Shown one piece after another: positions 2,848 to 45,138 of a stretch of DNA of 64,000 bases (its first letter is position 1; every line of letters starts with the position of its first letter). Under the pieces are notes generated by a model. That model saw only the letters and a program-made list of their open reading frames with translations. It was not told the origin of the DNA and did no database searches. The stretch comes from Flectonema sp. DT1601 (lineage: Eukaryota), in contig OZ025797.1 in assembly GCA_964019425.1 (NCBI GenBank), positions 62,001-126,000 of the forward strand, in the 5' to 3' direction. A program made the translations under genes and the position numbers.

Positions 2848-3441
2848 TTAGAGGTTTTGTTTACCGTTCGAAGGGACACCATATCCATCATTTACCATAG
2901 GTTGGTACTGCTGTGGTTGTTGCTGAACGATAGTAGTTGTATTGGAACTTCTCCTGCACATGCAAACAATGCAGACAACGATTAAGATACAGCACACGAT
3001 ACCTCCAACGATTAGTGCAATAAGAATTCCAACAGCGAGTGATGCAACATCTTCGGCTGTGATACCGTCGTATACGTACTTACCATTGTTTAGAGTAACC
3101 TTGCAAGTGCCACTTCCGTCGACAAGAGCAACAGTGACAGTTCTGAGAGCTGAGCTATTTGGAAGTTTTTCCTTCTTTTTGTACGAAACTACTTTTCCAG
3201 CAGATAGATTACTAATAGTGCTAGTCTTCGCAGACCATGGGTAAACAACAACAAGAGTTGCACCTGAGCATGAGCTCACTGATTTAAGACTAAAGTCGAA
3301 AGATATCAAATCATCACCACCAAAAGTAGACAGGAGATAAGTACTTTTAAATGCACTTCCACCTAACTTCGTAGTCGTCGGGTAAATAGTTCTGCTACTT
3401 GCCGATAAAATAGTTGCAGCAATGAGAAGAACAGCTGACAT
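2848..3441 (-). CDS. Small type-I membrane protein, copy 1
   Basis: Signal-peptide-like MSAVLLIAATILSASS, long Cys-rich TM (LAVGILIALIVGGIVCCILIVVCIVCMC), RR stop-transfer, Q-rich tail. Confidence 0.85.
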   Translation of the reverse strand: MSAVLLIAATILSASSRTIYPTTTKLGGSAFKSTYLLSTFGGDDLISFDFSLKSVSSCSGATLVVVYPWSAKTSTISNLSAGKVVSYKKKEKLPNSSALRTVTVALVDGSGTCKVTLNNGKYVYDGITAEDVASLAVGILIALIVGGIVCCILIVVCIVCMCRRSSNTTTIVQQQPQQYQPMVNDGYGVPSNGKQNL

Positions 3442-4085
3442 TTTCTTGTGTGTTACGAATTGATTTCAAACTGTTTTCGTGAAAAGGGGGAATTACTTGG
3501 ACCTTAATAACCTAAGAAACAGAATACATTCCGAGCCTTGCCCAGTACGGGTCAGGTGTGTCTACAAGCCAATCATTAGCAGTGTCTGTAAGAATGAGAA
3601 ATTATTTTGATTCGCACTTTTTTCCCCCTTTTTTTGTACATAATAGTCAACAAACATGAATTAAAAAAATAATAGTTAGAATATGAGATAATTGTCACAT
3701 TGTGACCTATGAGTTAATGTTTTGTGACAACTTTCTTTTTACAATTTATGCTAAACTCAAGAAGGACAAGAAAACATAAGGACGGGAGGAAAGGTCAATC
3801 AAGTATTTATTTTATTACATTTTTACAAAACAACTACAGATGTCAGAGCTAAGAAGAAGTTTCCTAGTCAAAACCATTTTTACTGTTTGTGTTTATTAAC
3901 AAAACATATTTGACGCTACGAATAATATAAAATGAGATGAGCGTACTAATAAGTTTTTATTATGTTTTCTTTAAATTATTTTTAATAGCAGTTAATGTAG
4001 TCGAAGGGCTGCAGTGAAAAAGAATAAAATTCTCTTTTTTTTTTTCAATGAGTCTTCATTATGAGAGAATACAAAATAATTGATA

Positions 4086-5418
4086 CTGTAATTATAAATA
4101 TCACGGTGTATAAAAAATTTGGAGTATAACAACTTTGGATATAAAAAAGATGGTGGATTCTCGAAAAAAAAACTTGGTGGATTTTTATAAAAAAGTATGA
4201 AAGTACACATTTTGACTGTAAAATGGTAGTTTTTGAATATGAAATCTTTCACACTATTTTTTGAAAAAACGGGATCCTTTTGAACCCCTGAGGACGTCTG
4301 ATAAGCATACTTCAACACGACCCCTGATAAGCATACTCCAACACGGACCATAAGAAGAGATCAACAGTGCAGGCAGGGCAATGAAGCTCTTTGTTGAGGA
4401 ACACAAGAGGAAGACGAAGGGAGAACCACTAGAAGGGCAGGTGAAATCTGGGAGACCAACCATCTTAACCACTGATGAGGAAGCGGGTGCTCGATTTAAT
4501 TGAGAATATCCGTGCCTATGGTGGCTGTGTGTTTGCTTCTCTTCTCTGGTTTTAAGCACAGGTGATACGCCGGAACGCGTGGATTCTGGTTCCCTACAAG
4601 CAACATGGGCCTACAAGTCCCTGGAACGGAAGGGTTGGATACCGTCTTGGAACCACTGCGAAAGTAGCGCCTGAAGTAGAACTCCTATCAGCTCGGTCAA
4701 GGTTTCTGGAGCAATAGTCCCATACTTTATTAAAAAACGCTCCAATCGGATCACCCTGGCCTCGCAGTATATGACCAGTTTAGGGGGCAGATAACTGAGG
4801 AAGTCCTTCGTCGATTTGAAGAAGCCAATATCACGGTTATACTGGTGCAAGGCGGATGGACTTCTCATCTCCGGCCGCTGGATCTAACTGTCATGGCCAA
4901 CTTCAAAGAAGAATCAAGCTTTCTTTGGAGAGTGGCTGACAGAGCAGATGCGCAAGCGGGAGGAAAAGTTGAAAAAAATCAAAAAAAAAAAAGCAAAAAG
5001 CTGAAGAAACTCTAAAGCGCGCTGCGAAAGGGAAGGGTCCAAAAGGAGCTCCTGAATCCGAACCCATGTCAAAATGGATGAAGGAGCTCACAAAAACGAA
5101 GAACATTCGAGGGCCGCAAATTGGGTGGATAGTGACAGCCCTTGATAGCATTACGAAAAATACTATCATGGTTGTAAAAGCAGGTATTGTCAATCCTGCA
5201 AATCCACCCGAGCTCCTGAAGTCCGTAGTTGTGAACATGAGTTCATCATTCAAAAAAAAGGTCAAAAAAAAAATTTTTTTTTCTGGAATCCGAATTTTGC
5301 TAAGTGTTTTCTGTGAATGATTGTACTAAAAAAACTTTGGATATAATAAAGATGGTGGATTTGGCCATTTTTTGGAGATTCGGAGACTTTTTATACACCA
5401 TGATATATATAATTACGG
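4086..5418 (+). mobile_element. Decayed pogo-like (Tc1/mariner superfamily) DNA transposon, copy A (internal deletion)
   Basis: ~31-bp TIRs (ctgtaattataaatatcacggtgtataaaaa / tttttatacaccatgatatatataattacgg) flanked by TA. Empty site visible in unit 1 (~2436). Frameshifted transposase motifs GRPTILTTDEE, LAVYDQFRGQ, GWTSHLRPLDLTVMANFK. Confidence 0.88.
4380..5200 (+). pseudogene. Frameshifted DDE_1/CENP-B-type transposase remnant
   Basis: HTH-like GRPTILTTDEE..VLDLIENIRAYGGCV and DDE-region ITVILVQGGWTSHLRPLD lie in different frames, with stops between them. Confidence 0.8.
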
Positions 5419-5816
5419 TAAATAAGGGAAACAAGGCGGCTTGCAACATTGCAAACCAACAGGGAATAAAATATTGTCTTGATGAACAAAAAGAGAAAAA
5501 GGGATTTGAGTAATGTTCGAATAAAATGAGAAATAGATCCGCTCTATCTAGTGCAGTTAAGCAATTACTTGTTGAACTCCCTGATGGTACTTCAGTCTGT
5601 GAACTTATCAACTAATCTTTCATTCCAAGTTTGATACATTCTTCATATTCTTCTTGACAGTAGTGGCGAGCAAGAAACTCAAACACTTCGTACGTTCTTC
5701 AAGTGTGGGGGGATTCTATTTCCATAATAATCATCAAACAAAACAAAAACTTGAAAGGGAAACAGGAAAGAGGGAAATTCGTTTTTGTTGTTTTCATTTT
5801 CTCAGCTAATTAACGA

Positions 5817-6407
5817 TCAGAAGTTTACTTTACCGTTTGAAGGGACACCATATCCATCATTTACCATAGGTTGGTACTGTGGTTGCTGCTGAACGACTGT
5901 AGTTGTATTGGAACTTCTCCTGCACATGCAAACAATGCAGACAACGATTAAGATACAGCACACGATACCTCCAACGATTAGTGCAATAAGAATTCCAACA
6001 GCGAGTGATGCAACATCTTCGGCTGTGACACCGTCGTATACGTACTTACCATTGTTTAGAGTAACCTTGCAAGTGCCACTTCCGTCGACAAGAGCAACAG
6101 TGACAGTTCTGAGAGCTGAGCTATTTGGAAGTTTTTCCTTCTTTTTGTACGAAACTACTTTTCCAGCAGATAGATTACTAATAGTGCTAGTCTTCGCAGA
6201 CCATGGGTAAATAACAGTAAGAGTTGCACCTGAGCATGAGCTCACTGATTTTAGACTAAAGTCGAAAGATATCAAATCATCACCACCAAAAGTAGACAGG
6301 AGATAAGTACTTTTAAATGCACTTCCACCTAACTTCGTAGTCGTCGGGTAAATAGTTCTGCTACTTGCCGATAAAATAGTTGCAGCAATGAGAAGAACAG
6401 CTGACAT
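5817..6407 (-). CDS. Small type-I membrane protein, copy 2
   Basis: 196 aa, near-identical to copy 1. Confidence 0.85.
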   Translation of the reverse strand: MSAVLLIAATILSASSRTIYPTTTKLGGSAFKSTYLLSTFGGDDLISFDFSLKSVSSCSGATLTVIYPWSAKTSTISNLSAGKVVSYKKKEKLPNSSALRTVTVALVDGSGTCKVTLNNGKYVYDGVTAEDVASLAVGILIALIVGGIVCCILIVVCIVCMCRRSSNTTTVVQQQPQYQPMVNDGYGVPSNGKVNF

Positions 6408-7050
6408 TTTCTTGTGTGTTACGAATTGATTTCAAACTGTTTTCGTGAAAAGGGGGAATTACTTGGACCTTAATAACCTAAGAAACAGAATACATTCCGA
6501 GCCTTGCCCAGTACGGGTCAGGTGTGTCTACAAGCCAATCATTAGCAGTGTCTGTAAGAATGAGAAATTATTTTGATTCGCACTTTTTCCCCCTTTTTTT
6601 GTACATAATAGTCAACAAACATGAATTAAAAAAATAATAGTTAGAATATGAGATAATTGTCACATTGTGACCTATGAGTTAATGTGTTGTGACAGCTTTC
6701 TTTTTACAATTTATGCTAAACTCAAGAAGGACAAGAAAACATAAGGACGGGAGGAAAGGTCAATCAAGTATTTATTTTATTACATTTTTACAAAACAACT
6801 ACAGATGTCAGAGCTAAGAAGAAGTTTCCTAGTCAAAACCATTTTTACTGTTTGTGTTTATTAACAAAACATATTTGACGCTACGAATAATATAAAATGA
6901 GATGAGCGTACTAATAAGTTTTTATTATTTTTTCTTTAAATTATTTTTAATAGCAGTTAATGTAGTCGAAGGGCTGCAGTGAAAAAGAATAAAATTCTCT
7001 TTTTTTTTTTCAATGAGTCTTCATTATGAGAGAATACAAAATAATTAATA

Positions 7051-8709
7051 CTGTAATTATAAATATCACGGTGTATAAAAAATTTGGAGTATAACAACTT
7101 TGGATATAAAAAAGATGGTGGATTCTCGAAAAAAAAACTTGGTGGATTTTTATAAAAAAGTATGAAAGTACACATTTTGACTGTAAAATGGTAGTTTTTG
7201 AATATGAAATCTTTCACACTATTTTTTGAAAAAACGGGATCCTTTTGAACCCCTGAGGACGTCTGATAAGCATACTTCAACACGACCCCTGATAAGCATA
7301 CTTCAACACGGACCATAAGAAGAGATCAACAGTGCAGGCAGGGCAATGAAGCTCTTTGTTGAGGAACACAAGAGGAAGACGAAGGGAGAACCACTAGAAG
7401 GGCAGGTGAAATCTGGGAGACCAACCATCTTAACCACTGATGAGGAAGCGGGTGCTCGATTTAATTGAGAATATCCGTGCCTATGGTGGCTGTGTGTTTG
7501 CTTCTCTTCTCTGGTTTTAAGCACAGGTGATATGCCGGAACGCGTGGATTCCGGTTCCCTACAAGCAACATGGGCCTACAAGTCCCTGGAACGGAAGGGT
7601 TGGATACCGTCTTGGAACCACTGCGAAAGTAGCGCCTGAAGTAGAACTCCTATCAGCTCGGTCAAGGTTTCTGGAGCAATAGTCCCATACTTTATTAAAA
7701 AACGCTCCAATCGGATCACCCTGGCCTCGCAGTATATGACCAGTTTAGGGGGCAGATAACTGAGGAAGTCCTTCGTCGATTTGAAGAAGCCAATATCACG
7801 GTTATACTGGTGCAAGGCGGATGGACTTCTCATCTCCGGCCGCTGGATCTAACTGTCATGGCCAACTTCAAAGAAGAATCAAGCTTTCTTTGGAGAGTGG
7901 CTGACAGAGCAGATGCGCAAGCGGGAGGAAAAGTTGAAAAAAATCAAAAAAAAAAAAGCAAAAAGCTGAAGAAACTCTAAAGCGCGCTGCGAAAGGGAAG
8001 GGTCCAAAAGGAGCTCCTGAATCCGAACCCATGTCAAAATGGATGAAGGAGCTCACAAAAACGAAGAACATTCGAGGGCCGCAAATTGGGTGGATAGTGA
8101 CAGCCCTTGATAGCATTACGAAAAATACTATCATGGTTGTAAAAGCAGGTATTGTCAATCCTGCAAATCCACCCGAGCTCCTGAAGTCCGTAGTTGTGAA
8201 CATGAGTTCATGTTTCTTAATACCGCACCTCAAACCTCGGTGGGGTCACACTGGCTACTGGCTATTACAACTATTGGAGAAGGGAACTCCTTAGTTGTAG
8301 TTGGCCTCGTCTAGACTGCATCACCAGCACTACTCCTTGCTGCTTTTAGGAATTTTGACATCATTCATTAAGACTGGTGTGCAACCAGCTACCAACAACG
8401 TTATTTGTGGATATGTTGTCCTGATATGTATCTGGAAGCAGCTTCAACATTCAAGACATCGTTATCCATCCCCCACCAGGTGGTACACAAGACCAGCCTG
8501 AGAACTTTAACCAGTTCAAAAATTTAGTATCAGAAAGTCAAAAAAAAAAGGTCAAAAAAAAAAATTTTTTTTTCTGGAATCCGAATTTTGCTAAGTGTTT
8601 TCTGTGAATGATTGTACTAAAAAAACTTTGGATATAATAAAGATGGTGGATTTGGCCATTTTTTGGAGATTCGGAGACTTTTTATACACCATGATATATA
8701 TAATTACGG
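7051..8709 (+). mobile_element. Decayed pogo-like DNA transposon, copy B (longer; retains protease-like segment ~8212-8538)
   Basis: Same TIRs, TA flanks and insertion site as copy A, plus ~330 bp absent from copy A. Confidence 0.88.
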
Positions 8710-9113
8710 TAAATAAGGGAAACAAGAGCAGCTTGCAACATTGCAAACCAACAGGGAATAAAATATTGTCTTGATGAACAAAAAGAGAAAAAAGGATTTG
8801 AGTAATGTTCGAATAAAATGAGAAATAGATCCGCTCTATCTAGTGCACTTAAGCAATCACTTGTCGAACTCCCTGATGGTACTTCAGTCTGTGAACTTAT
8901 CAAATAATCTTTCATTCCAAGTTTGATACATTCTTCATATTCTTCTTGACAGTAGTGGCGAGCAAGAAACTCAAACACTTCGTACGAGGAGTTCTTCAAG
9001 TGTGGGGGGATTCTATTTCCATAATAATCATCAAACAAAACAAAAACTTGAAAGGGAAAAGGGAAAGAGGGAAATTCGTTTTTGTTGTTTTCATTTTCTC
9101 AGCTAATTAACGA

Positions 9114-9704
9114 TCAGATGTTTACTTTACCGTTTGAAGGGACACGATATCCATCATTTACCATAGGTTGGTACTGTGGTTGTTGCTGAACGACTGTAGT
9201 TGTATTGGAACCTCTCCTGCACATGCAAACAATGCAGACAACGATTAAGATACAGCACACGATACCTCCAACGATTAGTGCAATAAGAATTCCAACAGCG
9301 AGTGATGCAACATCTTCGGCTGTGATACCGTCGTATACGTACTTACCATTGTTTAGAGTAATCTTGCAAGTGCCACTTCCGTCGACAAGAGCAACAGTGA
9401 CAGTTCTGAGAGCTGAGCTATTTGGAAGTTTTTCCTTCTTTTTGTACGAAACTACTTTTCCAGCAGATAGATTACTAATAGTGCTAGTCTTCCCAGACCA
9501 TGGGTAAATAACAGTAAGAGTTGCACCTGAGCATGAGCTCACTGATTTAAGACTAAAGTCGAAAGATATCAAATCATCACCACCAAAAGTAGACAGGAGA
9601 TAAGTACTTTTAAATGCACTTCCACCTAACTTCGTAGTCGTCGGGTAAATAGTTCTGCTACTTGCCGATAAAATAGTTGCAGCAATGAGAAGAACAGCTG
9701 ACAT
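9114..9704 (-). CDS. Small type-I membrane protein, copy 3
   Basis: 196 aa, near-identical to copy 2. Confidence 0.85.
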   Translation of the reverse strand: MSAVLLIAATILSASSRTIYPTTTKLGGSAFKSTYLLSTFGGDDLISFDFSLKSVSSCSGATLTVIYPWSGKTSTISNLSAGKVVSYKKKEKLPNSSALRTVTVALVDGSGTCKITLNNGKYVYDGITAEDVASLAVGILIALIVGGIVCCILIVVCIVCMCRRGSNTTTVVQQQPQYQPMVNDGYRVPSNGKVNI

Positions 9705-10807
9705 TTTCTTGTGTGTTACGAATTGATTTCAAACTGTTTTCGTGAAAAGGGGGAATTACTTGGACCTTAATAACCTAAGAAACAGAATACATTCCGAGCC
9801 TTGCCCAGTACGGGTCAGGTGTGTCTACAAGCCAATCATTAGCAGTGTCTGTAAGAATGAGAAATTATTTTGATTCGCACTTTTTTCCCCCTTTTTTTGT
9901 ACATAATAGTCAACAAACATGAATTAAAAAAATAATAGTTAGTTAGAGATAATTGTCACATTGTGACCTATGAGTTAATGTTTTGTGACAACTCTCTTTT
10001 TACAATTTATGCTAAACTCAAGAAGGACAAGAAAACATAAGGACGGGAGGAAAGGTCAATCAAGTATTTATTTTATTACATTTTTACAAAACAACTACAG
10101 ATGTCAGAGCTAAGAAGGTTTTTAGTCAAAACCAGTTTTACTGTTTGTGTTTATTAACAAAACATATTTGACGCTACGAATAATATGAGATTCATGAGCG
10201 TACTAATAAGTTTTTATTATTTTTTCTTTAAATTATTTTTAATAGCAGTTAATGTAGTCGAAGGGCTGCAGTGAAAAAGAATAAAATTCTCTTTTTTTTT
10301 TTTTTGCATTTAACAAATACTGTAAGTACGAAAAATCTCACAAGAATTCGACTGGTCAATTGCCAATGAGTCTTCATTACGAGAAAACACAAGAAAATAA
10401 ATAAAAAAGGGAAACAAGAGCAGCTTGCTACACTTGCAACCAACAGGGAATAAAATATTGTCTTGATGAACAAAAAGAGAAAAAGGGATTTGAGTAATGT
10501 TCGAATAAAAAATGAGAAATAGATCCGCTCTATCTAGTGCACTTAAGCAATCACTTGTCGAACTCCCTGATGGTACTTCAGTCTGTGAACTTATCAAATA
10601 ATCTTTCATTCCAAGTTTGATACATTCTTCATATTCTTCTTGACAGTAGTGGCGAGCAAGAAACTCAAACACTTCGTACGAGGAGTTCTTCAAGTGTGGG
10701 GGGATTCTATTTCCATAATAATCATCAAACAAAATAAAAACTTGAAAGGGAAACGGGAAAGAGGGAAATTCGTTTTTGTTGTTCTGATTTTCTCAGTTTA
10801 ATAACGA

Positions 10808-11404
10808 TCAGAGATGTGTTTTACCGTTCGGAGGGACACCATATCCATCATTTACCATAGGTTGGTACTGCTGTGGTTGCTGCTGAACGATAGTAGTTGT
10901 ATTGGAACTTCTCCTGCACATGCAAACAATGCAGACAACGATTAAGATACAGCACACGATACCTCCAACGATTAGTGCAATAAGAATTCCAACAGCGAGT
11001 GATGCAACATCTTCGGCTGTGATACCGTCGTATACTAACTTACCATTGTTTAGAGTAATCTTGCAATCGATACTTGTGCTATAAAGACCAACAGTGACAG
11101 TCTTCAAAGCTGAGCTATTTGGAAGTTTTTCCTTCTTTTTGTACGAAACTACTTTTCCAGCAGATAGATTATTAATAGTGTTAGTCTTCCCAGACCATGG
11201 GTAAACAACAACAAGATATGCACCTGAGCATGAGCTTACTGATTTAAGACTAAAGTCGAAAGATATCAAATCATCACCACCAAAAGTAGACAGGACATAA
11301 GAACTGTCAACAGTACCTCCAGCACTTAACGTCGTAGCCGTCGGGTAAATAGTTCTGCTACTTGCCGATAAAATAGTTGCAGCAATGAGAAGAACAGCTG
11401 ACAT
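10808..11404 (-). CDS. Small type-I membrane protein, copy 4 (divergent ectodomain)
   Basis: 198 aa; same architecture with two substituted ectodomain blocks. Confidence 0.85.
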   Translation of the reverse strand: MSAVLLIAATILSASSRTIYPTATTLSAGGTVDSSYVLSTFGGDDLISFDFSLKSVSSCSGAYLVVVYPWSGKTNTINNLSAGKVVSYKKKEKLPNSSALKTVTVGLYSTSIDCKITLNNGKLVYDGITAEDVASLAVGILIALIVGGIVCCILIVVCIVCMCRRSSNTTTIVQQQPQQYQPMVNDGYGVPPNGKTHL

Positions 11405-12915
11405 TTTTTTCTTGTGTGTTACGAATTGATTTCAAACTGTTTTCGTGAAAAGGGGGAATTACTTGGACCTTAATAACCTAAGAAACAGAATACATTCCGA
11501 GCCTTGCCCAGTACGGGTCAGGTGTGTCTACAAGCCAATCATTAGCAGTGTCTGTAAGAATGAGAAATTAAATCATTAAATAGAAATAAGAGATTAATAT
11601 CAGATAGTAGTACCGTTGCTTAAACTACAATAGTAGTATTCAAAAAAAAGAAAATAAGTTGCTACCATCCCTTCGGAAGGTTAGTTGTGAAGGGTTCTGA
11701 TAAATTTTAGAATGCAGACGACGCTTAAGAACAATAATTCATTTGTTAGTACGAAAAGAAGAAAAAAGGTTTGTTGATCGTACAGTAATACTGGTGGCAC
11801 AGTGAAATAGATAACATTTGACCATAAATTTTGAAAACGTAAAAGCAGTAACAATTTTAGGTATTAAAAACAAAATTAATATCAAAGTACTTGACTGAGA
11901 AAAACATTTGTAGTTGCTAAAGACAAGAAGACGTTATCGAATCTAGTTATTCAAGGAACACGTACTATCTGGTTGAGTTCGTCGGTGCGGCGGTAATTTG
12001 ATACTGCATTTTCAAGCTCAAAGGAACAACAATTTCTCCGACAATCTTGACTGTCAGCGGCAGCGTAGTAAATGACTGCAAATAAATAAATAATACCACT
12101 GGAGGCCACGTGAACATAGTTGAGCGCCATTTGCCTATGTTACCGTAACAGCTTTTTGTAAAACTCATGAGTACTTAATTAATACATTATATTGTCTTGA
12201 AAATTAACCATAGAAAAAGACGAACACCAGGAAGGGGGGCGGCTCTCTGTTAATAGCCGTATATACTGGTATTTGATGATACGAAAACTGTATTAAAAGT
12301 AGTTCAAGATGGCGAAACACGTTGTGAAATAATTAAACGCAGCACATCTCACTACTAACAAAAAACCTAAAACAAAAAGGAAACGTGATAACCCGCATTT
12401 ACGGTAAATGGCAAAGTGCCATTCCCTCGCTACACTCCACTCCCCCTAGCTGTCACAAATGTAAATCAAAATGCCCTGCCTGGCTAGTCACTACAATTAA
12501 ACTTCCCGGAGGGCGACGGGATTGGAAATAAAAGAGGGAAAAGAAACATTGTCTTCGATCATGCCGCTCCAAAATTAAAAAAGAGGCGAGCATAAACATC
12601 CTCATAATTCACACAAGGAGAGGGGGACACCACGCGGACTAGCCGCCGTTTTTTTGCTAAATTTTGTCCCTTGGGAAGTGCATTAAAGTTGTCCACTTCT
12701 ACGGTGGATAGCACGCACAGTCTTTCCTGCCCAGTAGGCACAGTGTGTAACTTTAAACGTACGTTGCTTAAATAATTAGGGAAGCAACACTGGATGAGTG
12801 GTCAATTGTACATGCGGGGGGGGAAAGGGTGCAAATCTACCCTACGTCGCACAACAACAAATAATAACTTTCATAAACTTCAAACGGTAAAGTAAGGAAA
12901 AAAGAGAAAAACATT

Positions 12916-21900: not shown

Positions 21901-22032
21901 CAGGAGGGATACCTTACGTATCTAGTCTGCTCCACATCTGCGGAAAGGACATGTGTGTGTGTAAAGAAAAAAGGAGGGGGAAAAAGAAACAGCAGTTAAA
22001 AACTTTTTTTTTTTTTTTATTAAGATAGTTCG

Positions 22033-22764
22033 TATTATTAGTTATGTCAACCAAAAAATATCAAATGCAAAAGTTCGTAGGACAACAAACAAATAATGGT
22101 TAGGCTCCAGGCTAAAATTAAAATACCTTCTTAGGACCATTCCCCTTACCCAGCGAAGAAAGTAAGGGGGACACTTTGCGGCGTCAGGCCCGTCCTACTC
22201 ATCGCATTTTTTAGTTAGTATTAATGGTTATTAGCTATTTAGTTAACTGATGACTACGAGGGGTCTGAGTAGCCCGTCAGTAAGGACCCAATCGCGAAGA
22301 TTGTAGTTTTGTAGCTTCGGCTGGAAGTTATCGACCTCTAGCTCCTGCCTTGCCTAGAGGCCAACAGGTTAAAACAACTAAAGAAAATAAAAGAGAAATG
22401 ATCTGGGAGTAGGGGGACAAAAATAAAAAATCTTTTTATTCCATGCAGAATCTTTTTTTATAATACGACCATAATAGCCCACATACCACGAAAGAAAATA
22501 AAAACCCCGGAACAGTACCGAGGATCGTTCACCCAGTTGTCCAAAGCATTATAATTGTACTGTGGGCTTACCGAAAGCTTTACAAAAGTACCACAAACAT
22601 TGGGCAGCATATAGCCGTATCACTCAGCAAGAAATGAAAACAAAAGGATCAGGTAAGATGACAGTCAGTTTATAGTCATAACTGCGCCGGACCAATATTA
22701 TAAAGAGAACTATGTGAGAAGGCTCTCAAAAAAAAACAGAACAAAAAGAGGACTGGAAGGGGGG
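22033..22764 (-). repeat. Downstream pseudo-LTR
   Basis: Apparently identical to 25386-26117 (offset 3353). Confidence 0.95.
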
Positions 22765-23093: not shown

Positions 23094-25385
23094 TTAGTTA
23101 TGGTTGGTTTGACTCAAAAGCAGGAAAGGTTCACAAGTCAACTGATGGATTTGCAAACCTCGACTTCCCGCAAACCATGTGCCTGCTTTCGTCGTACGCA
23201 TGCCACATCCACAACAAAAGTATATTCCAACGCAATTCAAGCAAACATTCCAATCACATGTTAAACTCTCACCTTTACAAGGGAGACGACATTCAAATAT
23301 TTGTCCAAAGAAATAATTTGAATCACATAAATCACAAAAAACTGGTTTATTAATGAGAACTATTTCAAGATCGTGACCTTGTGGGCAAGTGGTGGTTACA
23401 TCTTTTTGTTCTAACTCGGTATGTACTTTCATTGGAGAGAGCACCTTGCAGGATTTATAATCTGTTTCATTGACGATACTTTTCGATAAGAATCTACTCG
23501 TTATGTCCTTTTCGTTTAAAACAAATAAAGGTAATATGATTTCTAAACCTCCTTCACGCAATTTATCAAAGAGTACCCCGGCTTCGTCAGGTAAGTTTTC
23601 ACTCTCCACATCAGTAAAGCCAGAACAGGTAACCAAATTAAACAGGCCATTGAGAATGACCTCAGTATACTCTATACACCAATCATTGATTACTGACCAA
23701 TCGTATGGCCCTAGTATTGGGAAAAAGTGCTCAGATGGAACATTTGCATGGTGCCCGAGTATGATGAACCCCCTGACAAGTAAAAAAGTAGACCGCGCGT
23801 CGGGAGCGACAAAGTAAGCGGAGTCTTTTTGCTCATAAGGGTCCATACTTAGGAAGAAAAAACTAACACCCAATACATTTGATAAGGCTTGTATGGCTGC
23901 ATGGTCTGCCCACACACCATCAAAACCCATTCCAAGTGCATATTCGTCGTAATTACCGAGTACAAAGTTTTTATATTTATCACTATACTCTACTAACTCA
24001 GCACTGGTGAATTCACGCAGCGTCGCTGCATCAAAGAAGTAAAAGATTTGTTTCGATACTGCTTCAAAGAAACAATTACCAAAACGGTTCACGTCTTCAG
24101 GGTAAAGACCAACTTCTTCCATATACCATATCGTGTGGTCAATTGTAAAGTAATCCACTTTTCCTTCTTGAACAATTGGTTCTTCTGGAATCAACACTAC
24201 GGCTTTAGGCGGGTAAACAATAAACTGTCTTTCTTTTGGAAAATGGTAAGAGTGAGGGTTGTTTAATTTACCAAAGACAACATGAACTAAAGAAAATAAT
24301 CTCTTATATGTGGAATCGTAGGCTTTATAAAACTCATCGCAGAATTCACGAAAAGCAAATGCTACGTCTTGTTTCTTAAAACCTCTTTTCCACATTCTAT
24401 AAAGTATAAATTCAAATTCAACAAAAAGATCAGGTAAATTATTACAAATCATTGCAGCTCTAAACATAGCACCTTTAACCACTCCTTTCGGTATAGACAC
24501 CGGCATAGTTGAATTACTATGTACATATTGCAAAGGGCGAAAAGACCAATCCTTTCGGCTTATAGATAACCTGATAAACTTTCTCTTTTCCTTTGTTTCA
24601 ATTCTGATTCTTGCTCCCAAAAAGACTACGTGGTCTTCACTAATCGTAGTGTCTTTGTAGTCCATCTTGTAGATGCTTGGGGGTGGAGGCTCATGCCCCC
24701 AGCAAAGGAAGTCATCAATATAACGCACCATAGTGCTATAAATCTTTGCTTTTGGAGGGGTTAACGTATCAATGTATTTACTCTCACACTGATAGCAATA
24801 AAGGTTTGCTATTAAAGGGGAAGCATTACCACCCATTGGTATTCCTTTTGTTTGTCTATAACATTTTTTACTTCCGATCGGTTGAATTAATGAATAATCA
24901 ATACACATGTTGATATGTTCAATAACTTGTTCAACGGTAAGGTTTTTCGTCTTGGGTGGTTTCGTTTCGGTAAAAAAATATTCACTTTTTCCTTGCGAAT
25001 GACGCGTTAGGTACTTCAGTTTTTTGTAAGTAAAAGCTTCTTTCACAGCTGCCGCACATTGTTCTTTAAGATAGTCATGTGGTAAGTTGCTGTACATTGT
25101 AGTAAAATCAAAAGTTTTTGGTGGGGTGGAAGCGCTATAAATTGGGTATTTCCTTTTAATAGTTGTAATAACGTCGTCGACAGAATCAACAATGAAATAT
25201 CTACGTACACCTGTACGAGCAAACTCTATACAATCTTTTATGTAAAGCACTTTGAGAATCGTTTTTAGAAAACCGACTACTTCCAACTGTACATCCGTCA
25301 TTATATTAGACAAACCTCTAGCCGATAGAGCTGCTATTGTCTCTACTTTTGTATCTTTCAAACGGTTGTCTTTTTCCAAAAACTC
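23094..25385 (-). CDS. Reverse transcriptase + OTU-like cysteine protease + zinc fingers; N-terminally truncated
   Basis: RT motifs TFDFTTMYSNLPH, QTKGIPMGGNASPLIANLY, RYIDD, FLGARI and thumb RAAMICN..KRGF. OTU motifs FGNCFFEAVS, WADHAAIQALS, EHF. CPxGH..CxxC..CDxxVCxxC finger and CxxC..GLxxHxxxC finger. Confidence 0.9.
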   Translation of the reverse strand, partial: EFLEKDNRLKDTKVETIAALSARGLSNIMTDVQLEVVGFLKTILKVLYIKDCIEFARTGVRRYFIVDSVDDVITTIKRKYPIYSASTPPKTFDFTTMYSNLPHDYLKEQCAAAVKEAFTYKKLKYLTRHSQGKSEYFFTETKPPKTKNLTVEQVIEHINMCIDYSLIQPIGSKKCYRQTKGIPMGGNASPLIANLYCYQCESKYIDTLTPPKAKIYSTMVRYIDDFLCWGHEPPPPSIYKMDYKDTTISEDHVVFLGARIRIETKEKRKFIRLSISRKDWSFRPLQYVHSNSTMPVSIPKGVVKGAMFRAAMICNNLPDLFVEFEFILYRMWKRGFKKQDVAFAFREFCDEFYKAYDSTYKRLFSLVHVVFGKLNNPHSYHFPKERQFIVYPPKAVVLIPEEPIVQEGKVDYFTIDHTIWYMEEVGLYPEDVNRFGNCFFEAVSKQIFYFFDAATLREFTSAELVEYSDKYKNFVLGNYDEYALGMGFDGVWADHAAIQALSNVLGVSFFFLSMDPYEQKDSAYFVAPDARSTFLLVRGFIILGHHANVPSEHFFPILGPYDWSVINDWCIEYTEVILNGLFNLVTCSGFTDVESENLPDEAGVLFDKLREGGLEIILPLFVLNEKDITSRFLSKSIVNETDYKSCKVLSPMKVHTELEQKDVTTTCPQGHDLEIVLINKPVFCDLCDSNYFFGQIFECRLPCKGESLTCDWNVCLNCVGIYFCCGCGMRTTKAGTWFAGSRGLQIHQLTCEPFLLLSQTNHN

Positions 25386-26117
25386 TATTATTAGTTATGT
25401 CAACCAAAAAATATCAAATGCAAAAGTTCGTAGGACAACAAACAAATAATGGTTAGGCTCCAGGCTAAAATTAAAATACCTTCTTAGGACCATTCCCCTT
25501 ACCCAGCGAAGAAAGTAAGGGGGACACTTTGCGGCGTCAGGCCCGTCCTACTCATCGCATTTTTTAGTTAGTATTAATGGTTATTAGCTATTTAGTTAAC
25601 TGATGACTACGAGGGGTCTGAGTAGCCCGTCAGTAAGGACCCAATCGCGAAGATTGTAGTTTTGTAGCTTCGGCTGGAAGTTATCGACCTCTAGCTCCTG
25701 CCTTGCCTAGAGGCCAACAGGTTAAAACAACTAAAGAAAATAAAAGAGAAATGATCTGGGAGTAGGGGGACAAAAATAAAAAATCTTTTTATTCCATGCA
25801 GAATCTTTTTTTATAATACGACCATAATAGCCCACATACCACGAAAGAAAATAAAAACCCCGGAACAGTACCGAGGATCGTTCACCCAGTTGTCCAAAGC
25901 ATTATAATTGTACTGTGGGCTTACCGAAAGCTTTACAAAAGTACCACAAACATTGGGCAGCATATAGCCGTATCACTCAGCAAGAAATGAAAACAAAAGG
26001 ATCAGGTAAGATGACAGTCAGTTTATAGTCATAACTGCGCCGGACCAATATTATAAAGAGAACTATGTGAGAAGGCTCTCAAAAAAAAACAGAACAAAAA
26101 GAGGACTGGAAGGGGGG
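25386..26117 (-). repeat. Upstream pseudo-LTR
   Basis: Copy of 22033-22764, abutting the truncated RT ORF. Confidence 0.95.
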
Positions 26118-26570
26118 GGGGTACATGCTATCTCAGGCCACTTACACATCCGAGCATTGAACGCCACCAAACTATTTGGAGAAAATCTGAAAGATTGGAT
26201 GCAGTGACTCATCGCTGTATATTTGCATTACTGCTTCCGATCTCAGAAAAAATATTACGTTCCTCATAGCGTATCACAACGATGAAACAAAAGATATCAG
26301 TACACAAGAACTGCGTTAGTAACGACATTCAGAAATCTTCGTTTGAATTGTGATGGTGGTTCCGTAAATCATACGGTAGATTAACGTCAAAAAACACGAA
26401 AATTTGAAAAAAATTATTATCTAAAGACATTAGGGCTATTATGATCGATGCATTCCAATAAAAACAAAAAAAAGAAAACTTTTTTTCTTTTTTTGTAACA
26501 TTAATGGAACTTGACATGAGTGAAATAACAGATCAAGCGAACGAACATTGACCGAGAACGAACATGAGCG

Positions 26571-26866
26571 AAAAAAAAATTTTCAAAAAACTTCTATTTT
26601 CGGAAAAAAATTTCGTTATATTTCTAAACAGAAAATTTTTCTACATTCTCTATTTTTTTTTTTTCCTCAAAAAACCCATTATTTATTAATTATTTTATTT
26701 ATTTATGAAGCCTAGGAGCCAAAAGCCAGGAAAAGCTCAAGATACAGCCTTATGTTGTTGATCGCAAGACTGTATTTCTGAGATAACATTTGACCATAAA
26801 ATAAATAAACAAGTTCTTAATCTGAATAGTTTTCTTCTCAGAATTCGTCGGTCGGTGCAAAAACTA
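26571..26866. repeat. ~300-bp direct repeat, left copy
   Basis: Matches 27762-28067; the right-hand ~160 bp look identical. Confidence 0.9.
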
Positions 26867-27753
26867 TAACTCCACAAAAAAGTTTCTGAAATGTCCGATC
26901 TCAACATGAAAGTTTCCGAAACGGACAGCTCCACACAAAAAAGTTTCCGAAACGGACAGCTCCACACACGAAAGTTTCCGAAATGGACAGCTGTTTTTTT
27001 TTTTTTTATAGCTTACTGCCAGTGCATTTCGGGGTCGCCCAAAGTCGTGGGGATTTTTTTTTCTCCCAAAAAAAAAGTTTTTTTCCTACGTAAGGCAAGG
27101 CCATCCGACGAGATGAGTGAAATACACCGAACCTGTGTGACCTGGGGCTAGGCCTGACTGCGCCCCTGGATCGGCATAGCTCGGTATGTGGTGTGCAGGG
27201 CCAGGTATAGGGATGGACGAATTTCGGGTAGAGACACTTGTCCCGACTTGTCAGCTCATACAACCATGAGAATTCAGTTTCTAAAGATTCAATCAGCCGA
27301 ACTACTCCGCTACTGACTTTCACTTGATTAGCGAGCTACTAGTATATTATTATGTCACCTGTTGAAAAGGGAGTACTAAGAGGTTGATTCAGGCCCTGCA
27401 CGTATTAGTTGTAATTACAGCACCTGCTTTACCTTAAATTACTCCTTCCCTCATTAAGAACCAACCCATCTCGGCCAACAGCGAAAAATCCGAATATCAC
27501 TTTCAGTGAATAGCGAAAGAAAAACCTTTCCGTTTACTGAACAGCGAAAATGAAATTACCTACCATAGCAATTTTACACGGGAAAAAAAAAGTTGTTCAC
27601 TAGCGAAAAGTTTTTTTGGGTGCAGGTGGAGAAAAAAAAAAAAAAAAAATTTCATTTTGCTGTCCATTTCAGAAACTTTCGTGTGGAGCTGTCCGTTTCG
27701 GAAACTTTCATGTTGAGATCGGACATTTCAGTAACATTTACGTGGAATTAGAG
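26864..27753. mobile_element. MITE-like non-autonomous element with ~95-128-bp inverted repeats built of ~30-bp subrepeats
   Basis: 26864-26991 is the reverse complement of 27659-27753 (unit gaaagtttccgaaacggacagctccacac; left arm has one extra unit). No credible ORF. Confidence 0.7.
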
Positions 27754-27761
27754 GTTTTCCC

Positions 27762-28067
27762 AAAAAAAAAATTCAAAAAACTAAGGTTCTTCTATTTTCG
27801 AAAAAAAATTTCGTTATATTTCTACACAGAAATTTTTTCTACATTCTCTATTTTTTTTTTTCCTCAAAAAACCCATTCAGATTATTTATTAATTATTTTA
27901 TTTATTTGAAGCCTAGGAGCCAAAAGCCAGGAAAAGCTCAAGATACAGCCTTATGTTGTTGATCGCAAGACTGTATTTCTGAGATAACATTTGACCATAA
28001 AATAAATAAACAAGTTCTTAATCTGAATAGTTTTCTTCTCAGAATTCGTCGGTCGGTGCAAAAACTA
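27762..28067. repeat. ~300-bp direct repeat, right copy
   Basis: Matches 26571-26866. Confidence 0.9.
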
Positions 28068-42836: not shown

Positions 42837-44732
42837 TCATACGAAAGTCATTTTTACAGTTTCTGCGTCTTGTGCAACTTCACATGCTTCGGTAACGGTA
42901 CCGACCTTTACATCATTAATATGGGTTAATCGTTTTCCAAGTAACTTAGAGCATCCGCATAGGTCTGCCGGTGAATTTGGAATCACTTCCTCAAGTAGCA
43001 TATTAGCTCCACAGATCGCACCGGTTCCCTCATCTGGTTCTCTTGCAATTACAACAGTCGTTCCCTTGTCATTACAACCTAAACAGATATCACAAACATC
43101 ATAATCACATGTTCTACAACCAGCGAATCTAGCAGCTGGTAATATTAATTCACACGAAGAACAACAAACATCTCCAAGACCTGATGACTGAAGTTGTAAT
43201 TTATGTCCTAATGGACAACGACCTTTAGTAATGTGAGGAACTACTGGATGTGTTTCAATATTTATAACTTCAGTTGGTGGTAGTTGAAGATGATGATGTG
43301 ATTCAATTGATTTGTACGAAGTAACTTCTGTTGGAGCTCCAGCATGAACTGGTACTACACTTGGTGTGTGAGGTTGTCCTGTCATACTACAGTAAGGTGA
43401 TACTACTTGTGATCCTCCACAAGATGGACAGATATCAGTATCAGTAACTCCTTCAACTACTTCATGCGATTGTTGTACTGGACCAACCTGACTGTTGTGA
43501 TAGTCTTGTGAATGTGATTGTGATTGTGATGGTTGTTGTTGTTGTTGAGTTGATTTACTACTGTGACTATGTGGTTGAATAACATATCTAGGAGCTTGTT
43601 TAGGTTGTGGTGGTGATCTAATAGGCGATGGAGGAGTATTATCATTTGGATGATAGCCAGGTTTAGTCCAAACATCTCCATCATTCCACTCCAAGTAGTC
43701 AGGTCTTGCTTCTTCAAGTAATACATCCGCCAGAGCGATTCCATAGTTGCCAACTCTGATCGGATGTCGTTGGATCTCACCATCCATGACAACAGCTTCT
43801 CCTCTGATTTCAAATCGACGAATTGGTCTCGTTCCTGAAACCCACTTTCCTTGAAGCATTTGAAAAGCATTAACTGGTAAGTGCTCAGGCCATGTTGCTC
43901 TAGGCTTCTTCTTCGCACCTGTCATCCCATCAGCTATTGACTGATATTGTTGAGCTGGTACTTGTAATTCACTTGCTCTCCTTCTAGCAGGTGAATCCAT
44001 GTCTACTCGATGTTTTCTTTTACGTTCGGTAAACTCTGAATTACTTACATGTGGAGCACATGGTCTTCTAGACAAGAAAGGATCATCCCTTGAAGTATTT
44101 CCAACAACAGACTTATGATTTGCAATAATATCATCAGGTTTATAAACTGGTGCGTGTCTTGGTGATACTTCTCTTCGAGGTGGTGTTGCAGGAGGAGGTT
44201 GAATATGAACTTGTTGAGATTGATTAGGAACTCTACGTTGAACTGGTGACACCGATCTGATGATTGAGGGACGTACTTTTCCTGGAGAGGATCTGATTGA
44301 TGTGTTGTGCATTCGTTTTCTTCTTGAAAACTCAGCATGTGAAGTACTCATCCCTCTTGGGGTTACCGCAGCAGGTTCGGAGTAGGGAACAGATGTAGGA
44401 GACGGATAATATTTATTATCACCATGTTGTTGATGTTGCTGTTGTTGCTTAGGAGTTGGAGGAGTATACGAGGGAATCTCACCCTGAGGATCTTCATGTG
44501 CCATACCTCTTATGGTTTCCTTTAGCTCATGAACTGTTTTTCTTAAATTCATAACTTCAGATTCTAAGAACGGATTTTCACCACTGTGATCAAGTCCCCA
44601 AAGACCAGTTCTGTGCTCTCTCTTTTCATTTTCAAAATGTCTGTGAGATCTTGAATAGACACCTCCATCTGCAAAGACTGGAGCCTTCGGTTCTACAACA
44701 AGCCCTGAATACGAGGGACTGTCGGCATCCAT
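42837..44732 (-). CDS. Low-complexity protein with CPxGH-type zinc finger and C-terminal PDZ-like domain
   Basis: CPLGHKL..CSSC..CRTCDYDVCDIC; LLEEVIPNSPADLCG..LTHIND. Confidence 0.75.
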   Translation of the reverse strand: MDADSPSYSGLVVEPKAPVFADGGVYSRSHRHFENEKREHRTGLWGLDHSGENPFLESEVMNLRKTVHELKETIRGMAHEDPQGEIPSYTPPTPKQQQQHQQHGDNKYYPSPTSVPYSEPAAVTPRGMSTSHAEFSRRKRMHNTSIRSSPGKVRPSIIRSVSPVQRRVPNQSQQVHIQPPPATPPRREVSPRHAPVYKPDDIIANHKSVVGNTSRDDPFLSRRPCAPHVSNSEFTERKRKHRVDMDSPARRRASELQVPAQQYQSIADGMTGAKKKPRATWPEHLPVNAFQMLQGKWVSGTRPIRRFEIRGEAVVMDGEIQRHPIRVGNYGIALADVLLEEARPDYLEWNDGDVWTKPGYHPNDNTPPSPIRSPPQPKQAPRYVIQPHSHSSKSTQQQQQPSQSQSHSQDYHNSQVGPVQQSHEVVEGVTDTDICPSCGGSQVVSPYCSMTGQPHTPSVVPVHAGAPTEVTSYKSIESHHHLQLPPTEVINIETHPVVPHITKGRCPLGHKLQLQSSGLGDVCCSSCELILPAARFAGCRTCDYDVCDICLGCNDKGTTVVIAREPDEGTGAICGANMLLEEVIPNSPADLCGCSKLLGKRLTHINDVKVGTVTEACEVAQDAETVKMTFV

Positions 44733-45138
44733 ATGTTGGTACGATGCCTACTGAGTAAAAGTAATGTAACATTACAAAAAATAAATAAATAACATTTATC
44801 AGAAAAAGATATTTCGTAGGTTACAATAACGTCGAATGAGAATATCACAATGAAGACCCTTTTTTTTATGAGTGATTCCCTTCACAGAAACACAGGCAAC
44901 AGACAAAGTAACAACCTCTTAGAAAAGAGACCAGGCAAAAAAAAAAAAAAAGTGTAAATAGCAATAAGTACAATTCAATTGAAAATGCTAAACCCAACCA
45001 ACAGACTCATTCGTTCCTCAGAAGAGAAAAATACGCAATCAAAAAAAAAAGATTGGATACAATAGTAAGTAGAACAAAACATAACACACCACTAAGGCAT
45101 GACAACAAAAACAGCAATACAGATAAAAAACATAACTC

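What the first reader, a model, noticed from the sequence alone, without database searches (positions are those of the whole stretch)
23094..25385. Penelope-like RT fused to an OTU deubiquitinase-like domain and zinc fingers
Seen: an uninterrupted ORF with PLE RT motifs, then an OTU-like domain retaining candidate catalytic Cys (24072-24074, FGNC) and His (23727-23729, EHF), then two zinc-finger modules; no C-terminal GIY-YIG. Known: canonical PLEs carry a C-terminal GIY-YIG, whereas Naiad/Chlamys PLEs place it N-terminally; the TGVRRYFIVDS..DFTTMY..PH segment resembles the latter. Inference: a protist PLE lineage carrying its own OTU protease, for self-processing or countering ubiquitin-based silencing. 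I do not know this architecture from described PLEs but cannot confirm novelty.
Basis: partly seen in the sequence, partly recalled or inferred. Interest (0 to 1): 0.9.

Follow-up and report, generated by a model that had tools for sequence, protein, structure and literature searches.

The report
Penelope-like retrotransposons swap deubiquitinase tails
This is a young, front-truncated copy of a Penelope-like jumping gene whose protein ends in an OTU-fold domain and zinc fingers; its relatives carry three other ubiquitin- or SUMO-protease-type domains in the same slot, which likely means these elements repeatedly captured enzymes that strip ubiquitin marks off their own protein to keep it from being destroyed.

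Summary
Observation confirmed. The 763-aa minus-strand ORF holds a PLE RT, an OTU domain (Pfam above cut-off; the model's best structural match is OTUD1; Cys438, His553 and the aromatic gatekeeper are present) and two zinc fingers. It lies between two identical 732-bp pseudo-LTRs and is 5'-truncated: a near-identical family member runs 321 aa further upstream. A sister family (59% RT identity) reads GIY-YIG without CCHH – CxC – RT – OTU – zinc fingers, the Chlamys plan. The larger result: of 191 non-redundant related RTs, 70 have a tail of 150 aa or more, and 46 of those 70 tails hold a ubiquitin/SUMO isopeptidase domain (USP 29, Josephin-like 11, OTU 5, Ulp1 1). Catalytic motifs are mostly intact and the families are interleaved on the RT tree; one OTU clade is rejected by an AU test. 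Precedents exist: a Josephin tail in three Chara Chlamys families, and OTU/Ulp1 swapping in Ginger1 DNA transposons. I found no OTU-, USP- or Ulp1-bearing PLE in the papers searched; Repbase could not be checked. Enzyme activity, expression and substrate are untested. Verdict: new variant of a known kind, with a recurrent pattern worth testing.

The parts
25386..26117 (-). upstream pseudo-LTR (duplicate of the element's 3' end), joined directly to the truncated ORF
   Evidence: 732/732 identical to 22033-22764
26112..26121 (-). C10 run at the 5' junction: 6 C belong to the element, 4 to the flank
   Evidence: one of 4 runs of 8 or more C on this strand in 64 kb; no target-site duplication found
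23094..25385 (-). 5'-truncated ORF (763 aa): RT, thumb, OTU, two zinc fingers; begins at aa 322 of the longest family member P0128; first Met at aa 29 (25301)
24270..25223 (-). PLE RT core and thumb (aa 55-372) with the long motif A-B spacing of the insertion-in-fingers type; YIDD aspartates at 24716-24711
   Evidence: 59% identical to sister family P0133
23706..24116 (-). OTU-fold cysteine protease domain (aa 424-560): Cys438 (24074-24072), His553 (23729-23727), aromatic gatekeeper Phe554
   Evidence: Pfam, PDB, fold, conservation
23229..23387 (-). C1/ZZ-like zinc finger (aa 667-719)
   Evidence: conserved in P0133; weak C1_2 match in sister; atlas leads under 0.9
23130..23216 (-). terminal C2HC zinc finger (aa 724-752); similar fingers in the USP-bearing relative P0197
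22765..23093 (-). unique part of the 3' untranslated region
   Evidence: between the stop codon and the downstream repeat
22033..22764 (-). downstream pseudo-LTR (3' end of the element)
22063..22209 (-). non-canonical hammerhead-like arrangement near the 3' end (stem I, GAUGA, 7-bp stem II with a long loop, GAA; no CU of the core, no stem III); also at 25416-25562
   Evidence: no Rfam match; pattern defined after seeing the sequence
22004..22032 (-). 14-nt extension present only at the 3' end, followed by A15

Best explanation
This is a young, 5'-truncated copy of a Penelope-like retrotransposon, inferred to be of the Chlamys type, whose single protein ends in an OTU-fold domain that likely works as a deubiquitinase on the element's own protein, shielding it from ubiquitin-directed destruction during retrotransposition. 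Shown: pseudo-LTR structure, truncation, a multi-copy family at about 99% protein identity, OTU fold with Cys, His and gatekeeper, the full EN-CxC-RT-OTU-zinc finger order in a sister family, and USP, Josephin-like or Ulp1 domains in the same slot of relatives. Inferred: the full element nicks DNA with an N-terminal GIY-YIG and copies its RNA by target-primed reverse transcription (established PLE model); the OTU is an active Gly-Gly isopeptidase; its substrate is the RT/EN protein or its RNA-protein complex; the zinc fingers bind substrate, chromatin or nucleic acid. This copy lacks the endonuclease, CxC, DKA and LHK regions and probably cannot move on its own.
For: Element: 732-bp identical repeats; cluster of 12 near-identical proteins on long contigs, 6 of 12 with the whole OTU, 3 with part of it, 3 RT-only fragments, none with another tail. 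Sister family of 29 members, P0133, 1428 aa: N-terminal GIY-YIG (Pfam E 0.002) with no CxxC in the core, CxC, DKA, A-B spacing 91 aa. Selection on catalysis: the two OTUs are 25% identical (34/134) against 59% for the RT, yet keep GNCFFE and SEH-aromatic; G, C, F, R and H are invariant in 5 of 5 RT-linked OTUs. Recurrence: 46 of 70 long tails among 191 representatives carry an isopeptidase domain; 26 of 27 complete USP domains match both Cys and His boxes; 11 of 11 Josephin-like domains show Cys and His-aromatic (10 by pattern, P0167 by eye). The query pair sits in a 24-row clade (99/91) of 11 USP, 7 Josephin-like, 2 OTU and 4 others; one OTU clade is rejected, p-AU 6e-81. RT and USP lie in one stop-free frame in 4 of 29 metagenome loci. 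His followed by an aromatic marks DUBs (PMC7391069, passages). Helitron VTD domains were shown to be active K48/K63 DUBs and proposed to prevent proteasomal degradation of transposition proteins (PMC9741609, passages).
Against: No activity, expression or substrate data. The usual Asp at Cys-3 is Phe (Ala in the sister) and His+2 is Phe (Met in the sister), not Asp/Asn, so the third catalytic residue is not where most OTUs have it (the usual motif and the A20-type exception are recalled; the solved viral OTU 11nq also reads RLGNC). The endonuclease was never seen in this family itself: P0128 starts downstream of it. P0133's OTU has no Pfam hit and is assigned by similarity to the query (E 1e-9 among 177 proteins). 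24 of 70 long tails have no recognised protease and 111 of 191 representatives have under 60 aa after the thumb (some are fragments), so the domain is dispensable in many lineages. 5 of 12 Josephin-like calls rest on my own iterated profile. Action on the element's own protein cannot be told from action on host chromatin or repair proteins by sequence.
Confidence: 0.5

Rival explanations
1. The OTU is an active isopeptidase, but its target is host chromatin or DNA-repair proteins at the insertion site (ubiquitinated histones, PCNA, repair factors), with the zinc fingers as chromatin readers.
For: A Ulp1 (SUMO) protease fills the same slot in P0213 (Pfam 32.9 bits) and near the RT in locus L008 (59.5 bits, different frame); P0303 pairs OTU with a PHD finger. 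This role was proposed for Ginger1 OTU/Ulp1 tails (PMC2836005, passages).
Against: USP, Josephin and OTU dominate (45 of 46 classified tails), which fits general removal of ubiquitin better than one chromatin mark; no chromatin-reader family passes cut-off in the query.
Confidence: 0.25
2. The OTU is a polyprotein-processing protease that cuts the element's protein into parts.
For: The query has a ubiquitin-tail-like LREGG at aa 608-613, just after the OTU; some viral OTU-fold proteases process polyproteins (recalled).
Against: The sister family has no Gly-Gly outside the RT motif PMGG; four unrelated Ub/SUMO-type families, and no general protease family, were found in the slot.
Confidence: 0.07
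3. The domain has the OTU fold but is a catalytically weak or dead ubiquitin binder, or a captured passenger.
For: Missing Asp at Cys-3 and no Asp/Asn at His+2 in both families; many relatives lack any protease tail.
Against: Cys, His and gatekeeper survive at 25% domain identity; a passenger would not be replaced again and again by other isopeptidase families with intact motifs.
Confidence: 0.13
4. The RT-OTU junction is a chance fusion or gene-model artefact at this locus.
For: Several Diplonema hits are chimeric gene models joining the RT to host genes.
Against: One stop-free frame in raw DNA; the same junction in other family members and in a 59%-identical sister family; enclosed by identical pseudo-LTRs.
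Confidence: 0.01

Closest known systems
Chlamys-1, -4 and -6_cBra of Chara braunii (Craig et al. 2021, PMC8557442; abstract, sections 6, 9, 12, passages and supplement rows read)
   Same: N-terminal GIY-YIG without CCHH, CxC, IFD, pseudo-LTRs, frequent 5' truncation; a C-terminal extension with a DUB-type cysteine protease followed by a Cys/His-rich domain.
   Different: Their protease is Josephin-like (weak homology); here it is OTU. OTU, UCH, ubiquitin and peptidase occur 0 times in that paper's main text; OTU, ubiquitin, UCH, USP and peptidase 0 times in its supplement text. The host here is probably euglenozoan, not a streptophyte.
Naiad PLEs (same paper)
   Same: Same N-terminal-EN clade, CxC, DKA, IFD. 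A group of 17 USP-bearing representatives falls among RTs with Naiad-type endonucleases.
   Different: Naiad EN has CX2-5CxxC and CCHH motifs, absent in the sister P0133. Described Naiads are 3.4-4.4 kb and no USP tail is reported in that paper; my strict Naiad pattern matched only 2 of those 17 rows, many being N-terminally incomplete.
Ginger1 DNA transposons (PMC2836005, passages)
   Same: A C-terminal slot filled by either OTU or Ulp1; the authors suggest wide involvement of the ubiquitin pathway in transposition.
   Different: DDE DNA transposons, not RT elements; two protease families against four here.
Helentron OTU/VTD deubiquitinases (PMC9741609, passages; PMC6431247, passages)
   Same: Transposon-borne DUB domains of interchangeable class; VTDs shown active on K48/K63 chains.
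   Different: Rolling-circle DNA transposons; the paper states their OTU domains were not tested for activity.
Cellular OTUD1/OTUD3/OTUD5 catalytic domains
   Same: Best sequence and structure matches: fold, Cys loop, DGxWA-like loop, His-aromatic.
   Different: 15-22% identity in the structural alignments; Asp at Cys-3 and Asp/Asn at His+2 not kept; viral OTUs match nearly as well, so the donor is unresolved.

Membership tests
Penelope-like elements | RT of PLE type | tested here: met
   Motifs and homology to GIY-YIG-bearing PLE-type proteins. No named PLE or TERT reference sequences were available for the tree.
Penelope-like elements | Partial tandem giving pseudo-LTRs, 5' truncation, extension at one end | tested here: met
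   732/732 repeats; ORF cut at aa 322 of P0128; 14-nt 3' extension, shorter than the 30-40 bp described
Naiad/Chlamys clade | GIY-YIG endonuclease N-terminal to the RT | tested here: inconclusive
   Met in the sister family P0133; not seen in this family, whose longest protein starts downstream of it
Naiad/Chlamys clade | CxC motif and DK(A) motif upstream of the RT core | tested here: met
   P0128: CKC at 96, DKA after 221; P0133: CPC at 403, DKA after 525
Naiad/Chlamys clade | Insertion in fingers between RT motifs A and B | tested here: met
   Spacing 88 (query) and 91 (P0133) against 85-91 in six proteins of the Naiad-type clade; no canonical PLE was on hand as a short-spacing control
Chlamys (versus Naiad) | EN lacks CCHH and CX2-5CxxC | tested here: met
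   Tested in the sister P0133 and in 12 other clade members where the core was found: none has CxxC in the core; the pattern found no core in 2 further rows
Chlamys | No canonical hammerhead ribozyme | tested here: met
   No Rfam match at E up to 5; only a non-canonical look-alike
Chlamys | Groups with named Chlamys elements in an RT phylogeny | not testable with these tools
   Reference consensus sequences could not be brought into the tools; Chlamys is itself possibly paraphyletic
OTU deubiquitinases | OTU fold | tested here: met
   Pfam above cut-off; Foldseek OTUD1 E 3.4e-9
OTU deubiquitinases | Catalytic Cys and His with aromatic residue after His | tested here: met
   Cys438, His553, Phe554; invariant Cys and His in 5 of 5 aligned
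OTU deubiquitinases | Asp at Cys-3 and Asp/Asn at His+2 (typical, recalled, not universal) | tested here: not met
   Phe435 and Phe555; Ala and Met in the sister
OTU deubiquitinases | Cleaves ubiquitin isopeptide bonds | not testable with these tools
   Needs a biochemical assay

The most novel reading that the evidence does not exclude
Naiad/Chlamys retrotransposons have a C-terminal slot that has been filled repeatedly, OTU at least twice, by four unrelated ubiquitin/SUMO isopeptidase families (OTU, USP, Josephin, Ulp1), because hosts from protists to animals restrict these elements by ubiquitinating their RT protein; the tails are counter-defence enzymes and can be used as bait to find that host pathway.
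Probability: 0.4. Interest if true: 0.8.

Novelty: new variant of a known kind. Interest (0 to 1): 0.62.

Why it matters
The repeated capture of unrelated enzymes with one shared chemistry at one position is good comparative evidence that ubiquitin or SUMO marks limit these retrotransposons. It turns an old suggestion (made for Ginger1, Helentrons and Dualen) into a direct test in the RT class closest to telomerase: small domains, standard probes, and a recently active family. It also matters for annotation: such elements are deposited as host genes, for example a Diplonema protein named ubiquitin carboxyl-terminal hydrolase 26 that carries the RT, and PLEs are not mentioned in the main text of that genome paper.

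Tried and rejected
No whole genome is held for this window, so copy number, full-length copies and insertion sites could not be read at DNA level. No sequencing run was listed; this is no evidence on expression. AlphaFold on the whole protein with a 2-row alignment failed (pLDDT 31.7) and was not used. A search with the OTU pair alone among proteins of 81-277 aa found only a fragment of the same family, so the OTU donor is unresolved. A profile of the other four RT-linked OTUs did not hit the query OTU at E up to 1. Viral contigs: 81 pattern matches, none a relative. Metagenome contigs: 29 loci, none with OTU or Josephin. Rfam found nothing around the element and two sub-threshold matches in 16 of the 29 loci. 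The atlas gave leads under 0.9 only. A first tree on 191 rows did not finish; FastTree was used instead. A tree of 27 USP domains separates the Naiad-type and Chlamys-type groups (93/92) but has long-branch warnings and no cellular USPs, so it does not show independent USP capture. The wide structural search was busy and not repeated. No target-site duplication. Earlier findings of this scan: none returned. No complex prediction was run. Rejected: gene-model artefact, non-PLE RT, C-terminal-EN PLE.

Full report
Observation. The minus-strand frame is open from 25394 to 23094 and gives the 763-aa P0001. Pfam gives OTU 29.5 bits (cut-off 23.3), RVT_1 E 2.9e-5 and no GIY-YIG. The best solved relatives by sequence are OTUD1 (E 4.3e-5) and, with a two-family profile, OTUD5 (E 5.6e-5). 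A model of the domain alone (pLDDT 77) matches OTUD1, OTUD3 and OTUD5 (E 3e-9 to 7e-8); viral OTUs follow closely (best E 1.4e-7). A model of the whole protein failed.

The element. Two 732-bp repeats, identical at every position, flank the ORF (22033-22764, 25386-26117). The upstream one abuts the ORF in mid-RT. This is the partial-tandem pseudo-LTR structure described for PLEs (PMC8557442, section 6). The 3' copy carries a 14-nt extension and A15. The 5' junction lies in a C10 run, six C of which belong to the element. Craig et al. report (C)n and (CA)n targeting for many Chlamys, and three cluster members begin with proline-rich, non-homologous starts (P0131, P0143, P0161); this is suggestive only. 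No target-site duplication was found. Identity of the repeats implies a recent insertion (inference).

Family and sister family. P0002, 99% identical, heads a cluster of 12 proteins on contigs of 0.14-1.39 Mb. Six of 12 hold the whole OTU, 3 part of it and 3 are RT-only fragments; none has another tail. P0132 differs from P0001 only at its start and is probably this locus. P0128 (1084 aa) extends 321 aa further upstream and adds CxC, DKA and LHK but no endonuclease. The sister cluster (29 members; P0133, 1428 aa) has an N-terminal GIY-YIG (E 0.002) without CxxC in its core, CxC, DKA, an A-B spacing of 91 aa, then RT, OTU and both zinc fingers. These are the Chlamys criteria of PMC8557442 (section 9). 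Identity between the families is 59% in the RT, 25% in the OTU and 38% in the zinc fingers, with GNCFFE and SEH-aromatic kept. The endonuclease of the query's own family is inferred from the sister, not seen. No named PLE references were available for the tree.

Host. All 24 ORFs of 200 aa or more in the window lie on the minus strand, and the nearest named RT relatives are from Diplonema papillatum (39-40% to P0133), whose genes sit in co-oriented clusters (PMC10161547, passages). A euglenozoan, probably diplonemid, host is an inference. A host ORF at 42837-44747 has a similar C1/ZZ-like finger (tblastn E 0.34), too weak to name a donor. Shared contig lengths among clusters suggest that the two OTU families and two Josephin-like families live in one assembly.

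The wider pattern. 32 of the 120 listed hits carry the USP family PF00443. I pooled 332 proteins; 311 have an RT match, 241 cover most of it, and 191 remain at 80% identity. Seventy of the 191 have 150 aa or more after the thumb, and 46 of these 70 carry an isopeptidase domain: USP 29, Josephin-like 11, OTU 5, Ulp1 1. Labels come from Pfam extended by my own profiles; on reversed tails the best E-values were 0.58 (Josephin), 0.014 (USP) and none (OTU). Of 12 Josephin-like representatives (one has a short tail), 7 have a Pfam match, 4 of them above cut-off, and 5 rest on my profile. Of 5 OTU representatives, 2 pass the Pfam cut-off, 2 are below it and P0133 has none; P0313 passes but has too little RT for the tree. 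Two more tails (P0215, P0269) look Ulp1-like by eye, have no Pfam match and are not counted. 26 of 27 complete USP domains match both catalytic boxes; 11 of 11 Josephin-like domains examined show Cys and His-aromatic. RT and USP share one stop-free frame in 4 of 29 metagenome loci, so the fusions are not gene-model artefacts. Bias: the pool comes from searches with the query and its sister and from length-limited searches, so these are not population frequencies.

Trees. FastTree on 191 rows puts the query in a 70-row clade holding 30 isopeptidase-labelled rows; the other 121 rows hold 17, all USP, among RTs with Naiad-type endonucleases. My strict Naiad pattern matched 2 of those 17. IQ-TREE (LG+G4, no mixture model) on 67 rows that I chose (52 of the 70, 15 of the 121) places P0001 with P0133 (100/99) in a 24-row clade (99/91) of 11 USP, 7 Josephin-like, 2 OTU, 3 short tails and 1 unknown; the other three OTU rows form a separate clade (100/100). 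Forcing the five OTU rows together is rejected (p-AU 6e-81), and a profile of the other OTUs does not detect the query's. At least two OTU captures, or tail exchange between elements, is the simplest reading; gains cannot be told from losses without a root and cellular donors. The USP domain tree is not decisive.

Mechanism. The endonuclease and RT are taken to work by nicking and target-primed reverse transcription, as shown for a Poseidon element (PMC11167929, passages). What the four tail families share is cleavage after the Gly-Gly end of ubiquitin or SUMO (established knowledge); His followed by an aromatic residue marks this chemistry (PMC7391069, passages) and is present here. Helitron VTD domains are active DUBs, proposed to protect transposition proteins from the proteasome (PMC9741609, passages). 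I commit to protection of the element's own protein (0.5), against action on chromatin or repair proteins (0.25), a weak or dead binder (0.13) and self-processing (0.07). Against activity: Phe at Cys-3 and at His+2 where most OTUs have acidic or amide residues (recalled). Against self-processing: the LREGG at aa 608-613 is not in the sister. This copy lacks its N-terminal half and is probably not autonomous.

What is known. Three Chara Chlamys families carry a Josephin domain and a Cys/His domain. Ginger1 transposases end in OTU or Ulp1 (PMC2836005, passages); Helentrons carry OTU (PMC6431247, passages). Eight searches of the open library turned up no PLE with OTU, USP or Ulp1; most listed papers were seen only as listings. 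A 2026 preprint on retrozymes (10.64898/2026.07.22.740005, passages) added nothing. Repbase, Dfam, subscription journals, figures and preprint supplements were not searchable, so prior annotation there is possible.

Verdict. Real, and a new variant of a known kind: a Chlamys-type PLE with an OTU tail, one case of recurrent isopeptidase capture across the Naiad/Chlamys clade. Interest 0.62.

Noticed in passing
window 22063-22209 and 25416-25562 (-): Hammerhead-like layout at the 3' end of the pseudo-LTR: stem I, GAUGA, perfect 7-bp stem II around a 113-nt loop, GAA; lacks the core CU and stem III. 0 of 3000 shuffles matched both stems, but the pattern was defined after seeing it; fold z -2.1. 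Possibly a degenerate ribozyme.
   Followed up: partly
P0057, P0061, P0087, P0102, P0192; loci L009, L012: A clade of Naiad-type elements (N-terminal GIY-YIG, RT) with an intact C-terminal USP domain; 17 representatives. Not reported in the Naiad paper.
   Followed up: partly
P0181, P0183 (Diplonema papillatum), P0009: RT-USP elements in clusters of 18 and 7 members, one deposited under the name ubiquitin carboxyl-terminal hydrolase 26; other Diplonema gene models join the RT to host genes.
   Followed up: partly
P0158/P0005 and P0167/P0006: Two more high-copy families (59 and 35 members), probably of the same assembly, with a divergent Josephin-like tail that Pfam misses.
   Followed up: partly
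P0311, P0303: RT-OTU elements of a second lineage with a further DnaJ domain (P0311, E 4e-15) or PHD finger (P0303).
   Followed up: no
window 26572-28067: A separate non-coding repeat next to the element: about 300-bp direct repeats (93%) at 26572-26866 and 27762-28067 enclosing inverted arms (26859-27007 and 27636-27758) around a 600-bp core with no long ORF; possibly a non-autonomous element.
   Followed up: no
window 2848-11431 (-): Four tandem near-identical genes for a 205-aa predicted membrane protein with a Cys-rich transmembrane end.
   Followed up: no
window 1-64000: All 24 ORFs of 200 aa or more lie on the minus strand, and the element is inserted in the same orientation, so it could be transcribed by read-through.
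   Followed up: no
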